DNA from: Ignavibacteriota bacterium
GTDB taxonomy: Bacteria > Bacteroidota > Ignavibacteria > UBA10030
Direction of reading: 5' to 3'
Length of the DNA stretch: 64,000 bases
Assembly: GCA_963769605.1 (NCBI GenBank)
Contig: CAVYML010000009.1
Coordinates: forward strand, 12,579 to 76,578
A model generated the notes under the pieces. That model was not told the origin of the DNA. It ran no database searches and saw nothing but the letters and a program-made list of their open reading frames with translations. Shown here in pieces: positions 4,086 through 53,544 of this stretch. How positions within the stretch are numbered: position 1 is the stretch's first letter; every line of letters starts with the position of its first letter. The translations under genes were made by a program, and so were the position numbers.

Positions 4086-4108
4086 CCGCGACGACCCGTC
4101 GCGGCTAC
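4086..4108. repeat. REP-like palindrome, family 2 (CCGCGACGACCCGTCGCGG with CTAC tail)
   Basis: 7-bp stem CGCGACG/CGTCGCG around an ACC loop, followed by CTAC. Near-identical copy at 4953..4975 and a GTAG-headed copy with an expanded loop at 26634..26687. Confidence 0.6.
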
Positions 4109-4175
4109 AGAAAACTACATCAATTGGATCTTGTTCCAACGTTATCTTTGTAGACGCGGGAGTTTCTCACATCCC

Positions 4176-4667
4176 TTACTTCAGTCCGTACCTTTTTAGA
4201 TATAGATATGTCAGATAGGCCGTTCCGGTCATTTCTACCGAGCTTAAAATCGTTTCCAATGTTCGGTATTCCTCCTGCCTGGCAAGATCGCTTTTCCATG
4301 CAGAGATAATATCCGCATTCGCCCTCATCGACGCAGAAGGAATGGGAGTTGAAAGTGTCAGCGCCTGCTCAAGCGAAGAGGGAAGATTCGGCGGAAGCGT
4401 CCTGAGCGACAACGGAATAATTACATTGGCCTTTTGCTTTGATAATTCGGACGTATCGAACTGGCTTTTACCGAGAGATGTATCGCGCATCTGTCCTGTT
4501 GTTTGCTTTTTTTCTCCGACTGCAGTGGAATCTTCCAGCGGCGGTGTTAGAAGTTCCCGTCCATTCGCAGCTAATACAGCCAGGAGAAAAAGACAGAAAA
4601 AAAGAGCAGAATTTATAGATCGACTATAAGGTCGGCTGAAGAAATCAAACAATTTCTTTAATCTCAT
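4176..4667 (-). CDS. Hypothetical secreted protein (signal peptide)
   Basis: 163-aa ORF with an N-terminal hydrophobic segment; no recognisable domain. Confidence 0.35.
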   Translation of the reverse strand: MRLKKLFDFFSRPYSRSINSALFFCLFLLAVLAANGRELLTPPLEDSTAVGEKKQTTGQMRDTSLGKSQFDTSELSKQKANVIIPLSLRTLPPNLPSSLEQALTLSTPIPSASMRANADIISAWKSDLARQEEYRTLETILSSVEMTGTAYLTYLYLKRYGLK

Positions 4668-4741
4668 CTCTACCCTCCTGAAATGGATTTATATATAAAC
4701 GAATTTAAGGAGAAAATGTTGTTAAAAAAACCTTTATGAAC

Positions 4742-4797
4742 GGTGAATGGTAAATGGTGAATGGTGAACTGCAAACGGTAAACTGTAAATAGTAAAC
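4742..4797. repeat. Degenerate heptamer tandem repeat (GGTRAAY)n
   Basis: cggtgaatggtaaatggtgaatggtgaactgcaaacggtaaactgtaaatagtaaac read directly; lies upstream of the 4176..4667 ORF on the minus strand. Confidence 0.5.
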
Positions 4798-4952
4798 AAA
4801 ACAACTAATGAACCAAATAACCAAAGAACTAAGGAAATATAACGGAACACAATTGGCAATAGTTCCCTCTTCCATTTTCCCTTGAGTATTTTAAGTTCCA
4901 TTCAATCTGTGGCCGCGGGCGGCGACCGCGGTGGTTTTTCGTAGAGTAAGAA

Positions 4953-5090
4953 CCGCGACGACCCGTCGCAGCTACAAGGCGCTTCGTTAAGTCTGGCCGT
5001 CCCTGGATCCCGATATAAAACATCGGGATGCTCATTCCGGCTGCAGACTTTGCTTTGCTACGCTCGCTAAGTCTGGCCGGAATGGCACTT
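4953..5090. repeat. Cluster of palindromic units (REP family 2 copy, ATCCCGAT/ATCGGGAT hairpin, CATTCCGGC/GCCGGAATG inverted repeat, duplicated TAAGTCTGGCCG)
   Basis: Several inverted repeats read directly in the intergenic region upstream of the membrane-protein gene at 5093. Confidence 0.5.
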
Positions 5091-10158: not shown

Positions 10159-11094
10159 ATGTATATGCATTTTTTCTTCGGAACAAACAAACTTGTACAA
10201 GCTGTCGGCATAGCCGTTATTTTAACCTTATTGCTGCCTGCGATAAGTACGGCCTGTGCATGCGGATGCAATGTCTTCTCAGTCGGCTCGATGTGGATGA
10301 TGCCGTACTCATCCGGTCTCACAATGGCTCTGACATATAATTACATGGATCAGCGCACGGACTGGTCAGGCTGGAACAGCGCTGCAACAAATTTAAACAG
10401 CGATAAAGAAATCAGAACAAGCTTTTATACGCTCGGATTACAGTACATGGAAAGCCGGGATTGGGGCATGATGATAGAAATCCCTGTTTGGGACCGCTTC
10501 TTTACGACAGCAGATAATCTTGGCAACATTGCATCAGCTGAACATGTGTCCATAGCCGATATTCGAATCACTGGCATATACACAGGTCTCTCAGAAGATA
10601 TGTCGACTGGCATTCTCTTGGGCTTAAAACTGCCGACCGGACCTTTTAATCTTTCGCTTTTGGATAGGGATACTCAGATCGGAACGGGGACAACCGACTT
10701 GCTCGTCGGGGGCTATAAGATGGGACAAGAGAATGGATGGGGATGGTATACTCATGCGCAGTTGCAGGTTCCACTTGCCGCCCGTGACGGCTACCTGCCT
10801 GGCGATAACTTTGACTTTAGCATCGGAATGCATTATGATAATCTTGTGGAGATGTGCAGAATAGTACCTATGCTGCAACTTACAGCATCTTTCCGCAGCG
10901 CTGACAGCGGTTTAAACGCAGACCCCGATAACACAGGTTATAAACGGCTTTACATATCTCCCGGTGTTGAAGTAACGGTAAGCAGTCATCTAAGCATCTT
11001 CGGGAATGTGAAGACGCCTCTCATAACGCAAGTGAGAGGTTACCAGCTCGTCGCACCGCTGCTGTCCACAGTAATTTTGAGCTGCCGTTTTTAA
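10159..11094 (+). CDS. Outer-membrane beta-barrel protein (MetA-pathway/transporter-like family)
   Basis: Signal peptide, alternating beta-strand pattern and a C-terminal aromatic residue; N-terminal CACGC cysteine cluster; adjacent to the metal ABC transporter. Confidence 0.55.
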   Translation: MYMHFFFGTNKLVQAVGIAVILTLLLPAISTACACGCNVFSVGSMWMMPYSSGLTMALTYNYMDQRTDWSGWNSAATNLNSDKEIRTSFYTLGLQYMESRDWGMMIEIPVWDRFFTTADNLGNIASAEHVSIADIRITGIYTGLSEDMSTGILLGLKLPTGPFNLSLLDRDTQIGTGTTDLLVGGYKMGQENGWGWYTHAQLQVPLAARDGYLPGDNFDFSIGMHYDNLVEMCRIVPMLQLTASFRSADSGLNADPDNTGYKRLYISPGVEVTVSSHLSIFGNVKTPLITQVRGYQLVAPLLSTVILSCRF

Positions 11095-11158: not shown

Positions 11159-11191
11159 AACCTTGTCAAGGTTACAAACCTTGACAAGGTT
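11159..11191. terminator. Perfect 15-bp-stem hairpin between convergent genes (bidirectional terminator candidate)
   Basis: AACCTTGTCAAGGTT-ACA-AACCTTGACAAGGTT read directly; each arm is itself near-palindromic. Confidence 0.6.
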
Positions 11192-11196
11192 TATAA

Positions 11197-11958
11197 TCAT
11201 TGAGCTACTCCCTCCTTCTTCTTCACCGCCGGAAATAAAAACGCTACAATCAATGCCAGCAAGGCATGAAAAAACACCAATGTATAGCCGGTAGGAAGAT
11301 CGAGGTTATAAGAAACTGCAATCGATAACAGATTCACCGCCGTTCCTACGATCCATGCTACAAGCAGGAGTTTCCATTTATTCAACCGGATGGCAATGAA
11401 CGCCGGAGCAACGAGGAGAGAAAAAACAATGAGCACGCCTGCCAGCCTTACGGAACTGGTGACCGTAGCTGCAAACGACACGAAGAAAAGAGTATCTTTC
11501 CAGAATCCCTTCATGCGCGGGTACACAAATACGAGAATCAATCCGAGCAGTGCATACACGATTGCAGTTTCTATGATGTCCGACCATGGCGTGAAGAGAA
11601 TATCCGAAGCCATGAGCTTGTCGAACATTTCCGTGCCGTGAGCGGATTTGGAGAGCACGATGAACACTCCCGATATACCGAACGCATAGAGCAATCCGAT
11701 AAACGCCTCATGCGAGGCGGTCCGTTTGGCTGCAAGCGCTATGAGCAGTCCGGCAAGAAGAGCAAACGTCAGTGAAACGGGATACAAATACTGACCATCC
11801 AGAAAAAGAATGGAACATGCCGCTCCCAGAGCGGACATCTGCCCTATGGCAAGGTCTGTAAAAATAATTCCCCTCCGGATAATCTCCAGTCCGAAGAAGG
11901 AGTGAATTCCGAGCAGCACCACGGAAAGAACGAATGCGGACAGGAGAATATCAGCCAT
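11197..11958 (-). CDS. znuB: Metal (Zn/Mn) ABC transporter permease, ABC-3/ZnuB family
   Basis: 253 aa with 8 TM helices and ABC-3 permease architecture; overlaps the substrate-binding gene by 8 bp. Confidence 0.8.
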   Translation of the reverse strand: MADILLSAFVLSVVLLGIHSFFGLEIIRRGIIFTDLAIGQMSALGAACSILFLDGQYLYPVSLTFALLAGLLIALAAKRTASHEAFIGLLYAFGISGVFIVLSKSAHGTEMFDKLMASDILFTPWSDIIETAIVYALLGLILVFVYPRMKGFWKDTLFFVSFAATVTSSVRLAGVLIVFSLLVAPAFIAIRLNKWKLLLVAWIVGTAVNLLSIAVSYNLDLPTGYTLVFFHALLALIVAFLFPAVKKKEGVAQ

Positions 11959-31070: not shown

Positions 31071-31094
31071 GGACACACTGGCATGTGTCCCTAC
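31071..31094. repeat. REP palindrome, family 1 (GGACACACTGGCATGTGTCC + CTAC)
   Basis: Overlaps the flotillin-like gene stop; the CTAC tail supplies the minus-strand TAG. Related to the copy at 33516..33539. Confidence 0.65.
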
Positions 31095-32911
31095 GAAGTT
31101 TTCTTCTTCGGGGTTTCCGGATTTTCTTTTTCTAATTTTTCTTTAATGACCATGGCCAGCAGCATATTTACAAGCGAGCCGCCGCCATCGGCGCCGGCAG
31201 CGCCGCCTGCAATAATTTCCGGGACTAATTTCTGGCCGCTTGTCGAAAGATGTCTGGCAACTTCAATGGCAGCATAATTCCCGGACTCCATCGACTGGAT
31301 TTTTTGCCTGATCACATCTGCTTCAGCCATTCCGACCGCTTTGATTTTTTCTCCTTCCGCCATACCGACGGTCTTCAGCACCATCGCATCGGCATCGGCA
31401 TTGACGGTTTTGGATTTCGCTTCGCCTTCGGCCTTTTTAACCGCTGCCTGAGCTTCATATTCGTTGATTTGAACTTTCCGTTCTGCGTCGACGACCCGTG
31501 CTTGTGTATCCGCAAGCGATTTGGCTTGCTGCAGGTCTTTGCGGACACCTTCCGCCTCGCGCTGCGTCTGGTATGTCACTTTTTCCTGCTCTGCAATCTT
31601 GCGATCCGTTAAAGTCTTCATAAGATCTTCAGGCGGTACGATGTCTCCGATAAGCGTATCGACCGCGCCGACGTTGTAATCTTCAAGAGCCTTGGAAATA
31701 CTTTCTCTTGCATCTTCCTGGCGTTCTTTTCTTCCTTTGAGAAATTCTATAACGTCCGATCCCTGCGCAGCATTGCGGAAATAGTTGCCGATGGTCGGCT
31801 CCAAAACCTGTGTAACTAAATTCGCCACGCTTCCGAAACGTGCAATAACTTTGGGCGCGTCCGTGCGGGGAATATGGATAATCTGACTGACATCGAGATT
31901 GAACTTAAAACCGTCGGAAGAACGCACCGTAATGGTCGAAAGTTTTTCATCGAGCTTGTGCGCTTCCGTTTTCCCGGTTGCCCAATTCAGCACGACATTC
32001 GCTGTGGGCACGATTTCGACTTTATGCGTAAACGGATTGATAGGATATTTGCCCGGATCTAAAGGTTCGACCCAGACGCCTTTCTGACCTCGAATCACTA
32101 AATTTCCGTGCTTAAATGCATCGCCGGTGACATCGACGCCTGTTTCGCCTACATATGCTATCACGACTCCGACATTGGCAATCGGCACAGTGGTCATATC
32201 CATCGATTCAACGGTGGCGAACCGTGGATTGATAAAATATCTGCCGGCGAGCATCACCTGCTCCTGAAGCCCCTTGAAACCGCCGCCGTCGATGAAGGCC
32301 TGAGCATCCTGAAACATGTTATGACCGGGAATTTCCTTGCCGGCAATTTCGTCTTTCGCAAGCGCTTTGCCTTCTTTCGTCGTTACCACGCCGACCTTGT
32401 TGTCCGGAATTTCAAGAACTGTTTCTTCGACGACCGAGAAAATAGACGAGTTAATTCTGTATGTCCCCGGCGGAATCACCGTTATCTGGGGTCCTCGTTC
32501 GCCTCCATTTGTAAGGAATCCTCTTGCATTTTGGAACGCATCACACTCGACGCGCCTGGCAAGGACCCTGCCGTCCTTTAACGGACGCCCGTCTTTTGCT
32601 TCGACGATGCCGATATATCCTTCTTTAATCGTCCTGAATTTTTCGAGCGAAATGTTGTACTGCCACGGCCAGAGCCAAAAATGGAGGCCCGGCGCAAGCG
32701 TATCGGCCTGATAACCGGCTTCGCCGTTGAGGGCAATAATCGCTCCGTCGGGAAGCGTTCGATGTGAGCCGAAGATGACGAATCTTTTATTGACGATGCC
32801 GATTGCATCATTGGGAATAATAATTATTCCGAAAAAGCGCAGCACCAATTTGTAACAAAAAATGATGAGGACGATTAAAACAATCCATAAATAACCGAGC
32901 ATCGTTTCCAT
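31091..32911 (-). CDS. SPFH/Band-7 flotillin-like protein
   Basis: 606 aa with N-terminal TM helix, SPFH domain, coiled coil with EA-rich repeats (EAQAAVKKAEGEAK) and a basic tail. Confidence 0.75.
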   Translation of the reverse strand: METMLGYLWIVLIVLIIFCYKLVLRFFGIIIIPNDAIGIVNKRFVIFGSHRTLPDGAIIALNGEAGYQADTLAPGLHFWLWPWQYNISLEKFRTIKEGYIGIVEAKDGRPLKDGRVLARRVECDAFQNARGFLTNGGERGPQITVIPPGTYRINSSIFSVVEETVLEIPDNKVGVVTTKEGKALAKDEIAGKEIPGHNMFQDAQAFIDGGGFKGLQEQVMLAGRYFINPRFATVESMDMTTVPIANVGVVIAYVGETGVDVTGDAFKHGNLVIRGQKGVWVEPLDPGKYPINPFTHKVEIVPTANVVLNWATGKTEAHKLDEKLSTITVRSSDGFKFNLDVSQIIHIPRTDAPKVIARFGSVANLVTQVLEPTIGNYFRNAAQGSDVIEFLKGRKERQEDARESISKALEDYNVGAVDTLIGDIVPPEDLMKTLTDRKIAEQEKVTYQTQREAEGVRKDLQQAKSLADTQARVVDAERKVQINEYEAQAAVKKAEGEAKSKTVNADADAMVLKTVGMAEGEKIKAVGMAEADVIRQKIQSMESGNYAAIEVARHLSTSGQKLVPEIIAGGAAGADGGGSLVNMLLAMVIKEKLEKENPETPKKKTS

Positions 32912-32940
32912 AAGAACCTCCTCTTGAAATATGATTTAAG

Positions 32941-33498
32941 TTATTTCCCGTGTTGTTGATTTTGAACGCTGTTGGGATTTTCTTCATCTTCCTGCCATTT
33001 CAAAGGATTATGAATAATATAATCCCGAATTTTGTTCAAAGAATCGTCGTTCCGGATGATGTGTTCATAATAATTCTTTTGCCAAACAGGAATTCCAGGT
33101 ATTGCACGATATTCATTAATCCGTTTTGTAGCGGCCGCTTTGAATAAACGAACGATGGTTGGTATCGAATTGGATGTTGGTTTGCCAAATTGTTCTTTCG
33201 TAGGGGCACGTTGCAACGTGCCCCTACATTCTATCAAAACAATAATGCCATGAATATGATTTGGCATTATCACAAACGAATCCAATTCAACCTCTGGACG
33301 GATATCTTTCGTTTTATACCATTCTTCCTGCACAATCTTACCAATCTTATTCAACTGCATCTCTTCTTGCATAATTTCCCCGAACAGACATTTCTTTTCA
33401 TGCGTGCATATTGTTATAAAATATGCACCTGGCGACGAATAACTATATTCTTTTAAACGTATAGATTTACGATGATGAATTGCCGGATCGTATTTCAT
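32941..33498 (-). CDS. REP-associated tyrosine transposase (RAYT, IS200/IS605 TnpA-like)
   Basis: HuH motif MPNHIHGII and catalytic Tyr region YIIHNP. Flanked by GTAG/CTAC-type REP palindromes and contains an internal 28-bp perfect palindrome at 33200..33227. Confidence 0.8.
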   Translation of the reverse strand: MKYDPAIHHRKSIRLKEYSYSSPGAYFITICTHEKKCLFGEIMQEEMQLNKIGKIVQEEWYKTKDIRPEVELDSFVIMPNHIHGIIVLIECRGTLQRAPTKEQFGKPTSNSIPTIVRLFKAAATKRINEYRAIPGIPVWQKNYYEHIIRNDDSLNKIRDYIIHNPLKWQEDEENPNSVQNQQHGK

Positions 33499-33515
33499 TT
33501 GGCTTCACCTTCGGT

Positions 33516-33539
33516 GGGACACACGCCGTGTGTCCCTAC
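33516..33539. repeat. REP palindrome, family 1 (GGGACACACG CCGTGTGTCCC + TAC)
   Basis: Perfect 11-bp inverted repeat with CTAC tail, 18 bp upstream of the RAYT start. Confidence 0.7.
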
Positions 33540-35858: not shown

Positions 35859-36461
35859 TCATCCTTTTTTCCATCGCTGCTCATTACGAACTTTATACAG
35901 CCTTTCCGTAAAACCCCCTTCCTGAACAAATTGCTCTTCGAGCACATGCAACAGCTGGTCCAGCAGGTAGTTTGTTTGGTGAATGACACAGACAATGGTG
36001 TTTGCAGCAACCTCTGCCGGACATTGCTCCACATAGGTCATATAAGTCTTATAAGACCTATTGTTTTCAAAAGCCAGGGCTCTGATTTCTTTTGCTTTAG
36101 AATGCTCTTTTCCCCAAAGCGGCAAATTATGCTGCCGCAAATAGTCGTGATAGTCCAAGAGCAATTCTTCCAAACTTGCCCTTGCAACGCCCACAAGCTT
36201 TAGTTCTGTTTTTTTAGAAGTGCCGGAGGCCATGCTTCCTTCGGCAATATTTTGTTTACCACTCCGGGCTACCTGCACCATTTGATCTACAGTTCTGGAT
36301 CGCTTATCGATAAACCGTTCACAAAATTTTACTGTAGCATCGTACACAATCTCCACCATTTGATACGATTTGAGATTTCGGTATCCTCCATGCGGCGGAA
36401 TTAATCTTTTGTCTTCTGATAACTCCATCTTCTCCCCCTTTGGAATTAATGATTGAAGCAA
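35859..36461 (-). CDS. Four-helix-bundle protein (23S-rRNA IVS-like family) with C-terminal extension
   Basis: KSYQMVEIVYDATVKF...NIAEGSMASGTSKKTELKLVGVARASLEELLLDY matches the four-helix-bundle family. Confidence 0.7.
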   Translation of the reverse strand: MLQSLIPKGEKMELSEDKRLIPPHGGYRNLKSYQMVEIVYDATVKFCERFIDKRSRTVDQMVQVARSGKQNIAEGSMASGTSKKTELKLVGVARASLEELLLDYHDYLRQHNLPLWGKEHSKAKEIRALAFENNRSYKTYMTYVEQCPAEVAANTIVCVIHQTNYLLDQLLHVLEEQFVQEGGFTERLYKVRNEQRWKKG

Positions 36462-52614: not shown

Positions 52615-53544
52615 ATGTTTAGAATACGATTTGTAGATTGGCTGAAATCTTTGCGCCGACCGCATCATTCAAATGATATATCCCAAGCGGTCGAAGATTC
52701 TCTACGAACAAGCGCAAAGCAAATTCAGATGCTTGATCCGGAAACAGAAAAGCAATGGCAGAGAATGCAAGCCGGACTTGCAGCAGAACAAAATTCTTCA
52801 AACATCCGGCACACTACCGTCCCGGTCATTCTTTGGAAACCTGCAATTTCTTTTGCTCTTGCGGCTTTTATCCTGATTGCAGGAGGAATATTCTTATTTC
52901 ATTCCAGCACCGCCAGGACCTACGAGACGGCAAAGGGCCAGCAATCTAAAATGACTCTTCCCGACGGCAGTGAGGTCATACTGAACCACACTTCGGAATT
53001 AACAGCCTATCATTCGCTTTTTGAACGCATTCGCCGTGTTTCATTAAAAGGAGAAGCTTTCTTTCAAGTGAAGAAAAATGGCAAACCTTTTATCATCACA
53101 ACCGATGCCGGCACTGTTCAAGTCCTGGGTACACAGTTCAATGTCCGTGTACGTGACGGACGGATGGAAGTAGCTGTTATCAGCGGTACCGTGAAAATAA
53201 CCGGCTTGCGAAACGGCATCGACAGCAGCATCATTCTCTCGCAGGGACAATTTTCCATCTGTGCAAAAAATGATTTTCCGGAATTATCCGGACATGTGCC
53301 TTTTTCCGAATATCCCGGCTGGCTGCATGGAACATTCATGTTCTACCGTACCAACCTTCTCTCAGCGTATAAAGAAATCGAATCGCAATTCGACATCAGC
53401 ATATTCGAGGAGGGACACCAATCGTCCGAAGAAACGATTACAGGTACCATCGACGGACGGAGCGCTGAGTGTGCTCTCACTGCACTTGTCCGGCTCACAG
53501 GAAAACACTTTCGCCATGAAGGCAATAGTTATATTATTTATTAG
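52615..53544 (+). CDS. FecR family anti-sigma factor / sensor
   Basis: TM segment then FecR domain motifs LPDGSEVILNHTSEL, GEAFFQV and TVQVLGTQFNV. Confidence 0.8.
   Translation: MFRIRFVDWLKSLRRPHHSNDISQAVEDSLRTSAKQIQMLDPETEKQWQRMQAGLAAEQNSSNIRHTTVPVILWKPAISFALAAFILIAGGIFLFHSSTARTYETAKGQQSKMTLPDGSEVILNHTSELTAYHSLFERIRRVSLKGEAFFQVKKNGKPFIITTDAGTVQVLGTQFNVRVRDGRMEVAVISGTVKITGLRNGIDSSIILSQGQFSICAKNDFPELSGHVPFSEYPGWLHGTFMFYRTNLLSAYKEIESQFDISIFEEGHQSSEETITGTIDGRSAECALTALVRLTGKHFRHEGNSYIIY

What the first reader, a model, noticed from the sequence alone, without database searches (positions are those of the whole stretch)
31071..33539. REP/RAYT locus: tyrosine transposase flanked by GTAG/CTAC REP palindromes plus a 28-bp perfect palindrome inside its own coding sequence
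The IS200-like RAYT gene (HuH motif, Tyr motif) is flanked by REPs of one family (GGGACACACGCCGTGTGTCCCTAC at 33516; GGACACACTGGCATGTGTCCCTAC at 31071, overlapping the flotillin-like gene stop). Unusually, the RAYT gene itself carries GTAGGGGCACGTTGCAACGTGCCCCTAC at 33200-33227, a perfect palindrome with the same GTAG/CTAC termini that encodes CRGTLQRAP. This could be an in-gene recognition or autoregulatory site, or a REP captured into the ORF.
Basis: partly seen in the sequence, partly recalled or inferred. Interest (0 to 1): 0.6.

Follow-up and report, generated by a model that had tools for sequence, protein, structure and literature searches.

The report
RAYT gene carrying its own REP
A domesticated transposase-like gene (RAYT) carries, in frame inside its own coding sequence, a copy of the small DNA hairpin (REP) that such enzymes act on; this arrangement was already described in 2018 as the hallmark of this RAYT subclass, so this locus is a typical new member.

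Summary
In detail: all three sequences are at the stated coordinates and are far beyond chance. The 185-aa ORF (32941-33498, minus strand) is a HuH/Y1 nuclease of TnpA_Y1 subclass 2.4, which equals RAYT group 4. Quentin et al. 2018 (PMC6006769) already reported this subclass's hallmark: in-frame REP insertions between the HuH and Tyr motifs, including "double-foot" REPs (5' GTAG ... CTAC 3'). The window's 28-bp palindrome is one of these, so the finding is a new member of a known kind.

New here: 13 of 16 genes of the window's subclade share the identical 28-mer. In a 10-gene codon alignment, third codon positions inside the palindrome match in 333/333 comparisons, against 48% elsewhere. Other subclades read the same kind of DNA in a different frame. 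Palindrome type tracks protein phylogeny. The encoded peptide lies in the only low-confidence loop of the model. So the DNA or RNA hairpin is maintained, not the peptide.

The same palindrome class also occurs intergenically and in frame inside unrelated genes. The window shows no large REP population.

Side observation: close relatives often sit inside type I restriction-modification operons; this locus does not.

The parts
32941..33498 (-). RAYT / TnpA_REP gene (185 aa), TnpA_Y1 subclass 2.4 = RAYT group 4
   Evidence: ORF. NCBIfam REP_Tyr_transpos E = 2.6e-19, 69.5 bits, below the 80-bit cutoff. Pfam Y1_Tnp 22.3 bits against a 23-bit cutoff. AF2 model pLDDT 83.4, best Foldseek hit 4ER8_A at E = 1.7e-7. 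7985 homologues with E <= 0.001.
33250..33261 (-). HuH motif codons (N80-H81-I82-H83)
   Evidence: Read from the sequence. N80, H81 and H83 are invariant in the 50-sequence alignment A1. Matches the subclass 2.4 signature NH[IFV]H.
33200..33227 (.). In-frame 'double-foot' REP: a perfect 28-bp palindrome with a GTAG foot on both strands, read as (C)RGTLQRAP(T)
   Evidence: Identical 28-mer in 13 of 16 genes of the subclade. Third-position identity 333/333 inside against 2037/4272 outside. The only model segment with pLDDT below 50, residues 93-104, overlaps the encoded peptide (residues 91-100).
33079..33084 (-). W139-Q140, start of the GTAG-binding segment (WQKNYYEHIIR)
   Evidence: Aligns to W94-Q95...E100-H101...R104 of 4ER8. 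Those residues are listed as GTAG contacts in PMC6006769.
33004..33021 (-). Catalytic Tyr motif Y160-I-I-H-N164-P165 (class 2 signature Y---NP)
   Evidence: Aligns to Y115...N119-P120 of 4ER8. Y160 is invariant and N164/P165 are nearly invariant in A1.
33516..33539 (-). Canonical single-foot REP: 5' GTAG followed by a GGGACACACG/CGTGTGTCCC hairpin on the gene strand, 18 nt upstream of the ATG and about 30 nt after the stop of the DUF4153 gene
   Evidence: DNA fold -9.7 kcal/mol, z = -3.9. The same stem type, GTAGGGACAC...GTGTCC, is listed for subclass 2.4 in Table S1 of PMC6006769.
31071..31094 (-). Second canonical REP of the same family (GTAG followed by a GGACACA...TGTGTCC hairpin); its foot supplies the TAG stop of the SPFH gene
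   Evidence: DNA fold -6.8 kcal/mol, z = -4.0.

Best explanation
The ORF encodes a REP-associated tyrosine transposase, a HuH/Y1 single-strand DNA nuclease-ligase, of TnpA_Y1 subclass 2.4 (RAYT group 4). Such enzymes bind GTAG-footed DNA hairpins (REPs) in single-stranded DNA and cut and rejoin beside them.

The 28-bp palindrome is a 'double-foot' REP of the type that belongs to this RAYT subclade. It sits in frame in the disordered loop between the HuH strand and the next helix (the beta3-alphaC loop), where roughly 10 extra residues do not disturb the fold. The two hairpins at 33516 and 31071 are canonical single-foot REPs of the kind associated with the same subclass.

The in-gene REP is not just a decaying passenger. 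Its nucleotide sequence, not its peptide, is held constant across very divergent genes, and each RAYT subclade keeps its own palindrome type.

What is shown: the identity of the protein and of the elements, the loop location, nucleic-acid-level conservation, co-divergence, and dispersal of the same element elsewhere.

What is inferred: that the in-gene REP is a substrate or recognition site for the enzyme it helps encode. It would be kept intact either by direct selection (for self-regulation, or so that gene and substrate always travel together) or by repeated enzyme-mediated renewal from sister copies.
For: Protein identity:
- NHIH, WQ and YIIHNP match the subclass 2.4 signatures in Table 1 of PMC6006769.
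- The GTAG-contact residues and the catalytic Y and N align to 4ER8.
- The fold matches 4ER8 best.

A family feature:
- 40 of 74 homologous genes have a perfect stem of at least 9 bp in the HuH-WQ segment, against 4 of 74 in nearly twice as much remaining gene sequence.
- 88 of the 118 close homologues in which both motifs could be located (of 120) encode RGT..RAPT at this spot, and most of the rest are near variants.
- The phenomenon is published.

Nucleic-acid-level constraint:
- Ten genes with 51-71% amino-acid identity and GC3 of 0.30-0.65 show third-position identity of 333/333 inside the palindrome against 2037/4272 outside.
- The conserved block ends exactly at the 28 nt.
- L003 carries a compensatory G>A plus C>T change that alters two residues but keeps the pairing.
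- Footed palindromes use both stop-free frames, 20 as VGA.. and 5 as xRG.., and never the frame that creates TAG.
- 10 of 13 stem pairs covary across 22 palindrome types.

Cognate relationship:
- The palindrome arm tracks the loop-masked protein distance (Mantel r = 0.55; 0 of 5000 permutations as high).
- In 28 of 49 loci the same arm also lies just outside the gene.

Loop location: the only model segment with pLDDT below 50 is residues 93-104.

Activity at the site: 35 of 118 close homologues have the loop expanded by 6-30 residues, with tandem half-site repeats such as TQRAPT-TQRAPT in examples like L001.
Against: - No experiment shows that this enzyme binds or cuts this palindrome.
- The window has no REP population to act on: 8 footed hairpins against 3.7 +/- 1.9 in shuffles, 5 of them at this locus. 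The internal stem type has no second copy in 64 kb.
- The protein falls below the curated cutoffs of NCBIfam NF047646 and Pfam PF01797.
- Some members of another subclade lack the palindrome cleanly, with a HuH-WQ distance of 44 aa against 54. It is therefore dispensable for at least some RAYTs.
- Sequence identity across phyla could come from renewal by extragenic copies, which do exist in L204, L205 and L210, rather than from selection on the in-gene copy itself.
Confidence: 0.8

Rival explanations
1. Passive passenger. A mobile REP happened to land in the only loop of the RAYT that tolerates extra residues, and it has no role for the gene. This is the reading offered in PMC6006769: a peripheral extension with little impact on activity.
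For: - The loop is disordered in the model.
- One subclade shows clean 30-nt presence/absence.
- The same palindrome class sits in frame in unrelated real genes: kinase, ABC transporter, CbiG, PUA domain and DUF7948. Most copies are nowhere near a RAYT: 76 of 83.
Against: - A neutral insert should decay at synonymous sites like the rest of the gene. Instead identity is 333/333 against 48%.
- 13 of 16 subclade genes from several phyla keep the identical 28-mer.
- Palindrome type co-diverges with the protein.
- In L001, L002, L060, L068, L201, L203, L206, L208, L209, L211 and L212 the in-gene copy is the only copy within 2-4 kb.
Confidence: 0.15
2. Autoregulatory hairpin. The stem-loop in the mRNA, or in single-stranded DNA bound by the RAYT itself, limits expression of a potentially genotoxic nuclease.
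For: - The hairpin is strong on both strands and as RNA, at -23.9 kcal/mol.
- It is conserved at the nucleic-acid level.
- From my own knowledge, not tested here: IS200 restrains its transposase with mRNA structure.
Against: - There is no expression data.
- A mid-ORF hairpin is a weak translational block.
- Strict Watson-Crick symmetry on both strands, with GTAG feet on both, points to DNA recognition rather than to a sense-strand RNA. The selection of sequences biases this point.
- Some RAYTs of the subclass do without it.
Confidence: 0.2
3. Built-in seed copy. Carrying one REP inside the ORF guarantees that enzyme and substrate are inherited and horizontally transferred together, so the pair can re-establish REPs in a new genome.
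For: - Subclass 2.4 is patchily distributed, consistent with horizontal transfer (PMC6006769). The identical palindrome occurs in records annotated as Meiothermus, Chloroflexi, Atribacteria, Ignavibacteriales and others.
- The in-gene copy is often the only local copy.
- Palindrome type is subclade-specific.
- The exact 28-mer also exists intergenically elsewhere.
Against: - Selection acting only at transfer events seems too weak to keep 28 of 28 nt.
- There is no evidence that an in-gene copy can be copied out.
- Group 4 RAYTs have small REP populations, about 14 copies of flanking 16-mers (PMC5581495).
Confidence: 0.2
4. The conserved entity is the peptide RGTLQRAPT, a functional protein motif, and the palindrome is incidental.
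For: The peptide is present in 88 of 118 parsed close homologues. G93, A98, P99 and T100 are invariant in A1.
Against: - All third positions are fixed irrespective of genome GC3.
- Conservation stops at the palindrome ends rather than at codon boundaries.
- Other subclades read the same kind of DNA in the other frame, as VGA....PL or VGA....APT.
- The same peptides appear in unrelated proteins wherever the REP is inserted.
- The segment has pLDDT below 50.
Confidence: 0.03

Closest known systems
TnpA_Y1 subclass 2.4 / RAYT group 4 with in-gene REP insertions (Quentin, Siguier, Chandler, Fichant 2018, PMC6006769; Bertels et al. 2017, PMC5581495)
   Same: - NH[IFV]H / WQ / Y..NP motifs and a length of about 190 aa.
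- A variable beta3-alphaC insert and no C-terminal extension domain.
- Canonical long REPs with three G-C pairs at the stem base, plus 'double-foot' REPs (GT[AG]G ... C[TC]AC).
- REP inserted in frame between HuH and Y.
- Bacteroidetes among the main hosts, and small REP populations.
- Both of the window's stem types are in their Table S1.
   Different: - Nothing essential differs. The Y motif reads YIIHNP rather than the consensus YIxNNP.
- The flanking REPs are direct, and one is separated from the gene by an SPFH gene.
- The paper treats the insert as tolerated. The synonymous-site conservation, frame usage and co-divergence shown here are not in that paper or in anything else I could search.
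E. coli TnpA_REP / REPtron (PDB 4ER8; subclass 2.2, RAYT group 2)
   Same: - HuH/Y1 fold; best structural match, TM 0.54/0.60.
- GTAG-contact residues conserved: W, Q, E, H and R.
- GTAG-footed hairpins next to the gene.
   Different: - Only 21% identity.
- HuH motif is NHIH, not DHLH.
- About 23 extra residues between the HuH strand and the WQ segment.
- No bulged long REPs or BIME arrays.
- The REP lies inside the gene.
- Below the NCBIfam equivalog cutoff.
IS200/IS605 transposase TnpA (IS608, ISDra2)
   Same: Same fold and catalytic logic (ranks 2-30). Hairpin recognition in single-stranded DNA, per the literature summarised in PMC8266576.
   Different: - The Tyr motif is Y---NP, not Y---Q.
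- Single copy in the window, with no tnpB.
- No left-end/right-end pair bounding just the gene, so it is not an insertion sequence.
REP or palindromic-element insertions inside protein-coding genes (Di Nocera et al. 2013, PMC3733652; Rickettsia palindromic elements, from my own knowledge)
   Same: A short palindromic repeat inserted in frame that adds a peptide to a protein without destroying it. I saw the same class inside a kinase, an ABC transporter, CbiG and others.
   Different: Here the host gene is the enzyme family that processes such repeats. The insert is nearly universal and sequence-invariant within a whole gene subclade rather than sporadic.
REPIN (two inverted REPs with a spacer; Bertels and Rainey 2011)
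   Same: A symmetric element that presents the REP on both strands. PMC6006769 notes that a double-foot REP could arise from an inverted dimer by central deletion.
   Different: There is no spacer and only a single 12-14 bp stem. It is not associated with group 2 or group 3 RAYTs.

Membership tests
TnpA_Y1 subclass 2.4 (= RAYT group 4) | HuH motif NH[IFV]H | tested here: met
   N80-H81-I82-H83; invariant N, H and H in A1; signature from Table 1 of PMC6006769.
TnpA_Y1 subclass 2.4 (= RAYT group 4) | W motif WQ, with conserved GTAG-contact residues (E. coli W94, Q95, E100, H101, R104) | tested here: met
   W139, Q140, E145, H146 and R149 align to those residues of 4ER8; W99 is replaced by Y144. 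Residue list.
TnpA_Y1 subclass 2.4 (= RAYT group 4) | Y motif YIxNNP (class 2: Y---NP) | tested here: met
   Y160-I-I-H-N-P165. Y---NP is kept, and the fourth position is H instead of the consensus N. The same position varies among the 120 homologues.
TnpA_Y1 subclass 2.4 (= RAYT group 4) | Variable-length insertion between beta3 and alphaC | tested here: met
   Coil between strand 81-88 and helix 112-131 in the model, with pLDDT below 50 at residues 93-104. About 23 residues more than 4ER8 between the aligned blocks. HuH-WQ length is 58-89 aa among homologues.
TnpA_Y1 subclass 2.4 (= RAYT group 4) | 8-residue insertion at the end of alphaB | not tested
   No residue-level structural alignment to 4ER8 was made for that helix.
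TnpA_Y1 subclass 2.4 (= RAYT group 4) | REP types: canonical long REPs with 3 G-C pairs at the stem base and/or double-foot REPs; REP inserted in frame in the gene | tested here: met
   Flanking GTAG-GGGACACA... hairpins and the internal GTAG...CTAC palindrome. The same stem types are in their Table S1.
TnpA_Y1 subclass 2.4 (= RAYT group 4) | Assignment by the authors' own MCL clusters or HMM profiles | not testable with these tools
   Their profiles are not available here.
NCBIfam NF047646 REP_Tyr_transpos (equivalog) | Score at or above the curated cutoff of 80 bits | tested here: not met
   69.5 bits, E = 2.6e-19. Homologous, but outside the curated equivalog.
Pfam PF01797 Y1_Tnp | Score at or above the gathering cutoff of 23 bits | tested here: not met
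   22.3 bits. Many close homologues do carry the precomputed PF01797 hit, and the fold matches.
IS200/IS605 insertion sequence | Y---Q tyrosine motif, left-end and right-end hairpins bounding the element, multiple copies, frequent tnpB | tested here: not met
   Y---NP motif; one copy in 64 kb; neighbours are DUF4153 and SPFH.
REPtron (E. coli type) | tnpA_REP flanked on both sides by REPs or BIMEs, typically in inverted orientation, with a large genomic REP family | tested here: inconclusive
   Two flanking REPs exist, but they are in direct orientation, and one lies beyond the next gene. Only 64 kb could be surveyed.
REPIN | [quoted passage not shown] | tested here: not met
   A single perfect 28-bp palindrome without a spacer.

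The most novel reading that the evidence does not exclude
The in-gene REP is a selected cis-element rather than a tolerated passenger. In this reading, this RAYT subclade is a self-contained 'enzyme plus substrate in one ORF' module whose hairpin must stay intact.

In many lineages the module is wired into type I restriction-modification operons (hsdS-RAYT-hsdR/M) or defence islands. That hints at a role in single-strand DNA processing linked to defence or to R-M maintenance, rather than in spreading REPs.
Probability: 0.25. Interest if true: 0.65.

Novelty: new member of a known kind. Interest (0 to 1): 0.35.

Why it matters
As found, it matters little, because the arrangement is a published hallmark of one RAYT subclass. 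It does give a clean, well-resolved example in a Bacteroidota/Ignavibacteria-like genome.

What could matter is the evidence that the hairpin is held constant at the nucleic-acid level across phyla, and that each subclade keeps its own type. That turns 'tolerated insertion' into a testable claim that a nuclease gene needs its own target inside it.

What RAYTs do for their hosts is still unknown, so a conserved cis-site and a recurrent position inside type I R-M operons are concrete handles for experiments.

Tried and rejected
- **Chance palindrome:** rejected.
- **Peptide-level conservation:** rejected by third-position identity and frame usage.
- **Conserved RAYT-SPFH or RAYT-DUF4153 gene pair, or a REP-bounded two-gene mobile unit:** neither neighbour is found next to any of 86 related loci.
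- **Promoter or terminator role for the three hairpins:** consensus matches are at chance level, and none coincides with them.
- **Known RNA family:** only a sub-threshold Ysr251 match outside the elements.
- **Known defence-system protein:** no PADLOC match for the RAYT, SPFH or DUF4153 proteins.
- **Phage origin:** only 17 viral contigs carry the palindrome class, and none of those copies is in a RAYT gene.
- **Literature on RAYTs in hsd operons, or follow-up on double-foot REPs:** nothing found.
- **Local R-M or defence context in the window:** absent; neighbours are TonB-dependent receptors, pirin, PAP2, DinB and radical SAM.
- **Genome-wide REP census:** not possible.
Full report
**Observation**

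- The 28-bp element GTAGGGGCACGTTG|CAACGTGCCCCTAC (33200-33227) is a perfect palindrome. It lies inside the minus-strand ORF 32941-33498 and is read as C-R-G-T-L-Q-R-A-P-T, residues 91-100.
- A perfect palindrome of this length is expected about 2.4e-4 times in 64 kb.
- It folds at -15 kcal/mol as DNA on either strand and at -23.9 kcal/mol as RNA. No shuffle comes close.
- The two outer hairpins, at 33516-33539 and 31071-31094, share GTAGGGACACA on the gene's strand.
- GTG[TC]CCCTAC occurs only at these three sites in the window, apart from one single-mismatch hit at 53409.
- Both outer hairpins point the same way as the gene.
- The downstream hairpin is 1.85 kb away, behind an SPFH/Band_7 gene. 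Its GTAG foot supplies that gene's TAG stop.

**The protein**

- It has NHIH (80-83), WQ (139-140) and YIIHNP (160-165).
- Against PDB 4ER8 (E. coli TnpA_REP), the segment WQKNYYEHIIRN...DYIIHNP aligns to W94-Q95...E100-H101...R104...Y115...N119-P120. These are the GTAG-contact residues and the catalytic Tyr and Asn (residue roles from PMC6006769).
- An AlphaFold model built on 50 homologues has pLDDT 83.4. It matches 4ER8 best and then the IS200/IS605 transposases.
- The curated sequence models fall just short: NCBIfam REP_Tyr_transpos 69.5 bits against 80, and Pfam Y1_Tnp 22.3 bits against 23.

**The palindrome is a family feature**

- Eighty related loci from many phyla were fetched. The gene could be parsed in 74 genes (73 of these loci plus the window). 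Of these, 40 have a perfect stem of at least 9 bp in the segment between HuH and WQ. Only 4 have one in the rest of the gene, which is nearly twice as long.
- Typical forms are GTAGGGGC-(variable, self-complementary centre)-GCCCCTAC.
- Both motifs could be located in 118 of the 120 closest protein clusters. These clusters are 54-70% identical to the window protein, with source names including Meiothermus, Atribacteria, Chloroflexi, Nitrospira, Hydrogenedentes and Ignavibacteriales.
- Of the 118, 88 encode RGT..RAPT at this spot, and most of the rest are near variants.

**Already known**

- Quentin, Siguier, Chandler and Fichant (2018, PMC6006769) define TnpA_Y1 subclass 2.4, which equals RAYT group 4 of Bertels et al. 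2017.
- Their criteria are the motifs NH[IFV]H / WQ / YIxNNP, a variable insert between beta3 and alphaC, canonical long REPs and 'double-foot' REPs (5' GT[AG]G plus 3' C[TC]AC).
- They regard the insert as a peripheral extension with little effect on activity.
- Their Table S1 lists both of the window's stem types for this subclass.
- Bertels et al. report only about 14 copies of flanking 16-mers per replicon for group 4. That fits the low density seen here.
- I found no later work on the in-gene REP.

**What I can add**

*Conservation is at the nucleic-acid level.*
- Ten genes of the window's subclade have 51-71% pairwise amino-acid identity and GC3 from 0.30 to 0.65. At columns with identical residues, third codon positions match in 333/333 comparisons inside the palindrome and in 2037/4272 elsewhere.
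- Among fully conserved residues, 5 of 5 inside the palindrome use one codon in all ten genes, against 6 of 40 outside.
- The invariant block stops exactly at the 28 nt. The preceding codon is T/G/A-GT, and the last codon is AC-G/A/C.
- With six more loci, 13 of 16 genes carry the identical 28-mer. The three variants are:
  - a central-loop change (L002);
  - a compensatory G>A plus C>T pair that changes two residues but keeps the pairing (L003);
  - a foot change (L207).

*Other subclades read the same kind of DNA in the other open frame.*
- Of 25 footed palindromes, 20 are read as VGA.. and 5 as xRG... None uses the frame in which GTAG would create a TAG stop.

*Stems covary.*
- Across 22 distinct palindromes, 10 of 13 stem pairs change on both sides. 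The high percentage paired is partly by selection.

*Palindrome type follows the protein tree.*
- With the loop masked, the Mantel correlation is r = 0.55, with 0 of 5000 permutations as high.

*Loop location.*
- The encoded peptide overlaps the only segment of the model with pLDDT below 50.

*The site is unstable.*
- 35 of 118 close homologues have the loop expanded by 6-30 residues, with tandem half-site repeats visible in examples such as L001.

*Clean absence in one subclade.*
- Some members lack the element, with a HuH-WQ distance of 44 aa against 54.

**The element elsewhere**

- Of 83 copies examined, 76 have no RAYT in the fetched DNA.
- Several copies are in frame inside real genes, read as VGAxxxxPL or RGTxxRAPT: a Ser/Thr kinase domain, an ABC transporter, CbiG, a PUA domain and DUF7948.
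- The window's exact 28-mer occurs intergenically in L112 and L142.
- It also occurs just outside the RAYT gene in L204 and L210, and as a foot-compensated variant in L205.
- In 28 of 49 loci the internal arm recurs within 3 kb, mostly within 150 nt of the gene ends.
- In many loci of the window's subclade, however, the in-gene copy is the only one nearby.

**The window**

- A descriptor search for GT[AG]G-footed hairpins finds 8, against 3.7 +/- 1.9 in shuffles. Five of them are at this locus.
- The other three form a second family at 4086-4976.
- The neighbouring genes are ordinary and are not shared with any relative.
- Promoter-like, terminator-like and Rfam signals are at chance level.

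**Mechanism**

Established for the family (literature):
- TnpA_REP binds GTAG-footed hairpins in single-stranded DNA.
- It cleaves and rejoins next to them.

Shown here:
- This gene is such an enzyme of subclass 2.4.
- The 28-mer is a REP of the type specific to its subclade.
- It sits in a disordered loop.
- It is maintained as nucleic acid.

Inferred:
- The enzyme recognises its in-gene REP.

Why the REP is maintained remains open. The candidates are self-regulation, guaranteed co-inheritance of enzyme and substrate, and enzyme-driven renewal from sister copies. Pure neutrality fits poorly with the synonymous-site data, and a peptide function is essentially excluded.

**Side observation**

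- In the window's subclade, 6 of 12 looked-up loci have the RAYT directly beside type I R-M genes, often with overlapping stop and start codons. The orders seen are hsdM-hsdS-RAYT-hsdR, hsdR-hsdS-RAYT-hsdM, SIR2/DUF87-RAYT-hsdR, and an hsdM fragment followed by RAYT.
- Two more lie in defence-island-like settings.
- Among the 80 broader loci, hsd genes flank the RAYT in L039, L051, L053, L063 and L065.
- No paper in the library mentions this. This window's locus has no such context.

**Verdict**

The feature is the published hallmark of its subclass, so the locus is a new member of a known kind and of modest interest. The nucleic-acid-level conservation and the R-M linkage are the parts worth taking further.

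Noticed in passing
L201 745-4570; L202 1-4320; L204 1-2597; L208 252-7728; L210 1-4627; L212 3706-4666; also L039, L051, L053, L063, L065: Close relatives of the window's RAYT are repeatedly embedded in type I restriction-modification operons, typically hsdS-RAYT-hsdR/M and sometimes with overlapping stop and start codons. This holds for 6 of 12 looked-up loci of the subclade. Two more (L203, L209) sit among toxin-antitoxin, Schlafen-like, OLD-like and MmeI-type genes. No PADLOC model and no paper found covers this. The window's own locus lacks it.
   Followed up: partly
L083 aa 103; L155 aa 323; L159 aa 372; L151 aa 35; L124 aa 332: The same double-foot palindrome class (GTAGGGGCACG-N6-CGTGCCCCTAC) is inserted in frame inside unrelated, Pfam-confirmed genes: a Ser/Thr kinase domain, an ABC transporter ATPase, CbiG, a PUA-methyltransferase and DUF7948. 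It adds VGAxxxxPL or RGTxxRAPT peptides. Most copies in the metagenome sample (76 of 83) have no RAYT nearby.
   Followed up: partly
window 4086-4109, 4909-4931, 4953-4976: A second GTAG-footed hairpin family, TGTAGC[CT]GCGACGGGTCGTCGCGG on the minus strand. Two copies are 96% identical, and there is also a GTGG-footed variant. They flank a 163-aa ORF (4176-4667, minus strand). They look like REPs of another stem type in the same genome.
   Followed up: partly
window 31091-31094: The TAG stop codon of the SPFH/Band_7 gene (31091-32911, minus strand) is part of the GTAG foot of the downstream REP. The REP therefore defines, or coincides exactly with, the end of that ORF.
   Followed up: no
window 11159-11191: A 33-bp near-perfect AT-rich palindrome, AACCTTGTCAAGGTT-ACA-AACCTTGACAAGGTT, with a 15-bp stem that is the longest in the window. 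It lies between convergent ORFs (10159-11094 plus strand; 11197-11958 minus strand) and looks like a bidirectional terminator.
   Followed up: partly
P0004, P0014, P0027, P0028, P0007, P0003; L001 1108-1165; L053; L073: Many homologues carry tandem duplications of one arm of the palindrome, for example TQRAPT-TQRAPT, (STPxAPT)x4 or RGTLH-GRGTLQRAPT. In 35 of 118 close homologues the loop is lengthened by 6-30 residues. This suggests slippage or aberrant cleavage-ligation at the in-gene hairpin.
   Followed up: partly
L205, 24 nt upstream of the RAYT gene: A copy of the 28-mer with a compensated foot change, GTACGGGCACGTTGCAACGTGCCCGTAC (GTAC...GTAC instead of GTAG...CTAC), sits right next to a RAYT that carries the standard form inside.
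   Followed up: no
window 35859-36461 (minus strand); L205 620-988: A 23S_rRNA_IVP-like (four-helix-bundle) protein gene lies about 2.4 kb from the RAYT in the window. The hit is weak, 27 bits against a 33.8-bit cutoff. A gene of the same family lies about 1 kb from the RAYT in L205. This may be coincidence.
   Followed up: no
window 1-64000: GC skew of the plus strand is negative in 12 of 16 4-kb bins. If that marks the plus strand as lagging, then the minus-strand sequence is the lagging-strand template, which is the strand exposed as single-stranded DNA. The minus strand carries the GTAG feet of both flanking REPs. The signal is weak and no origin is in view.
   Followed up: no
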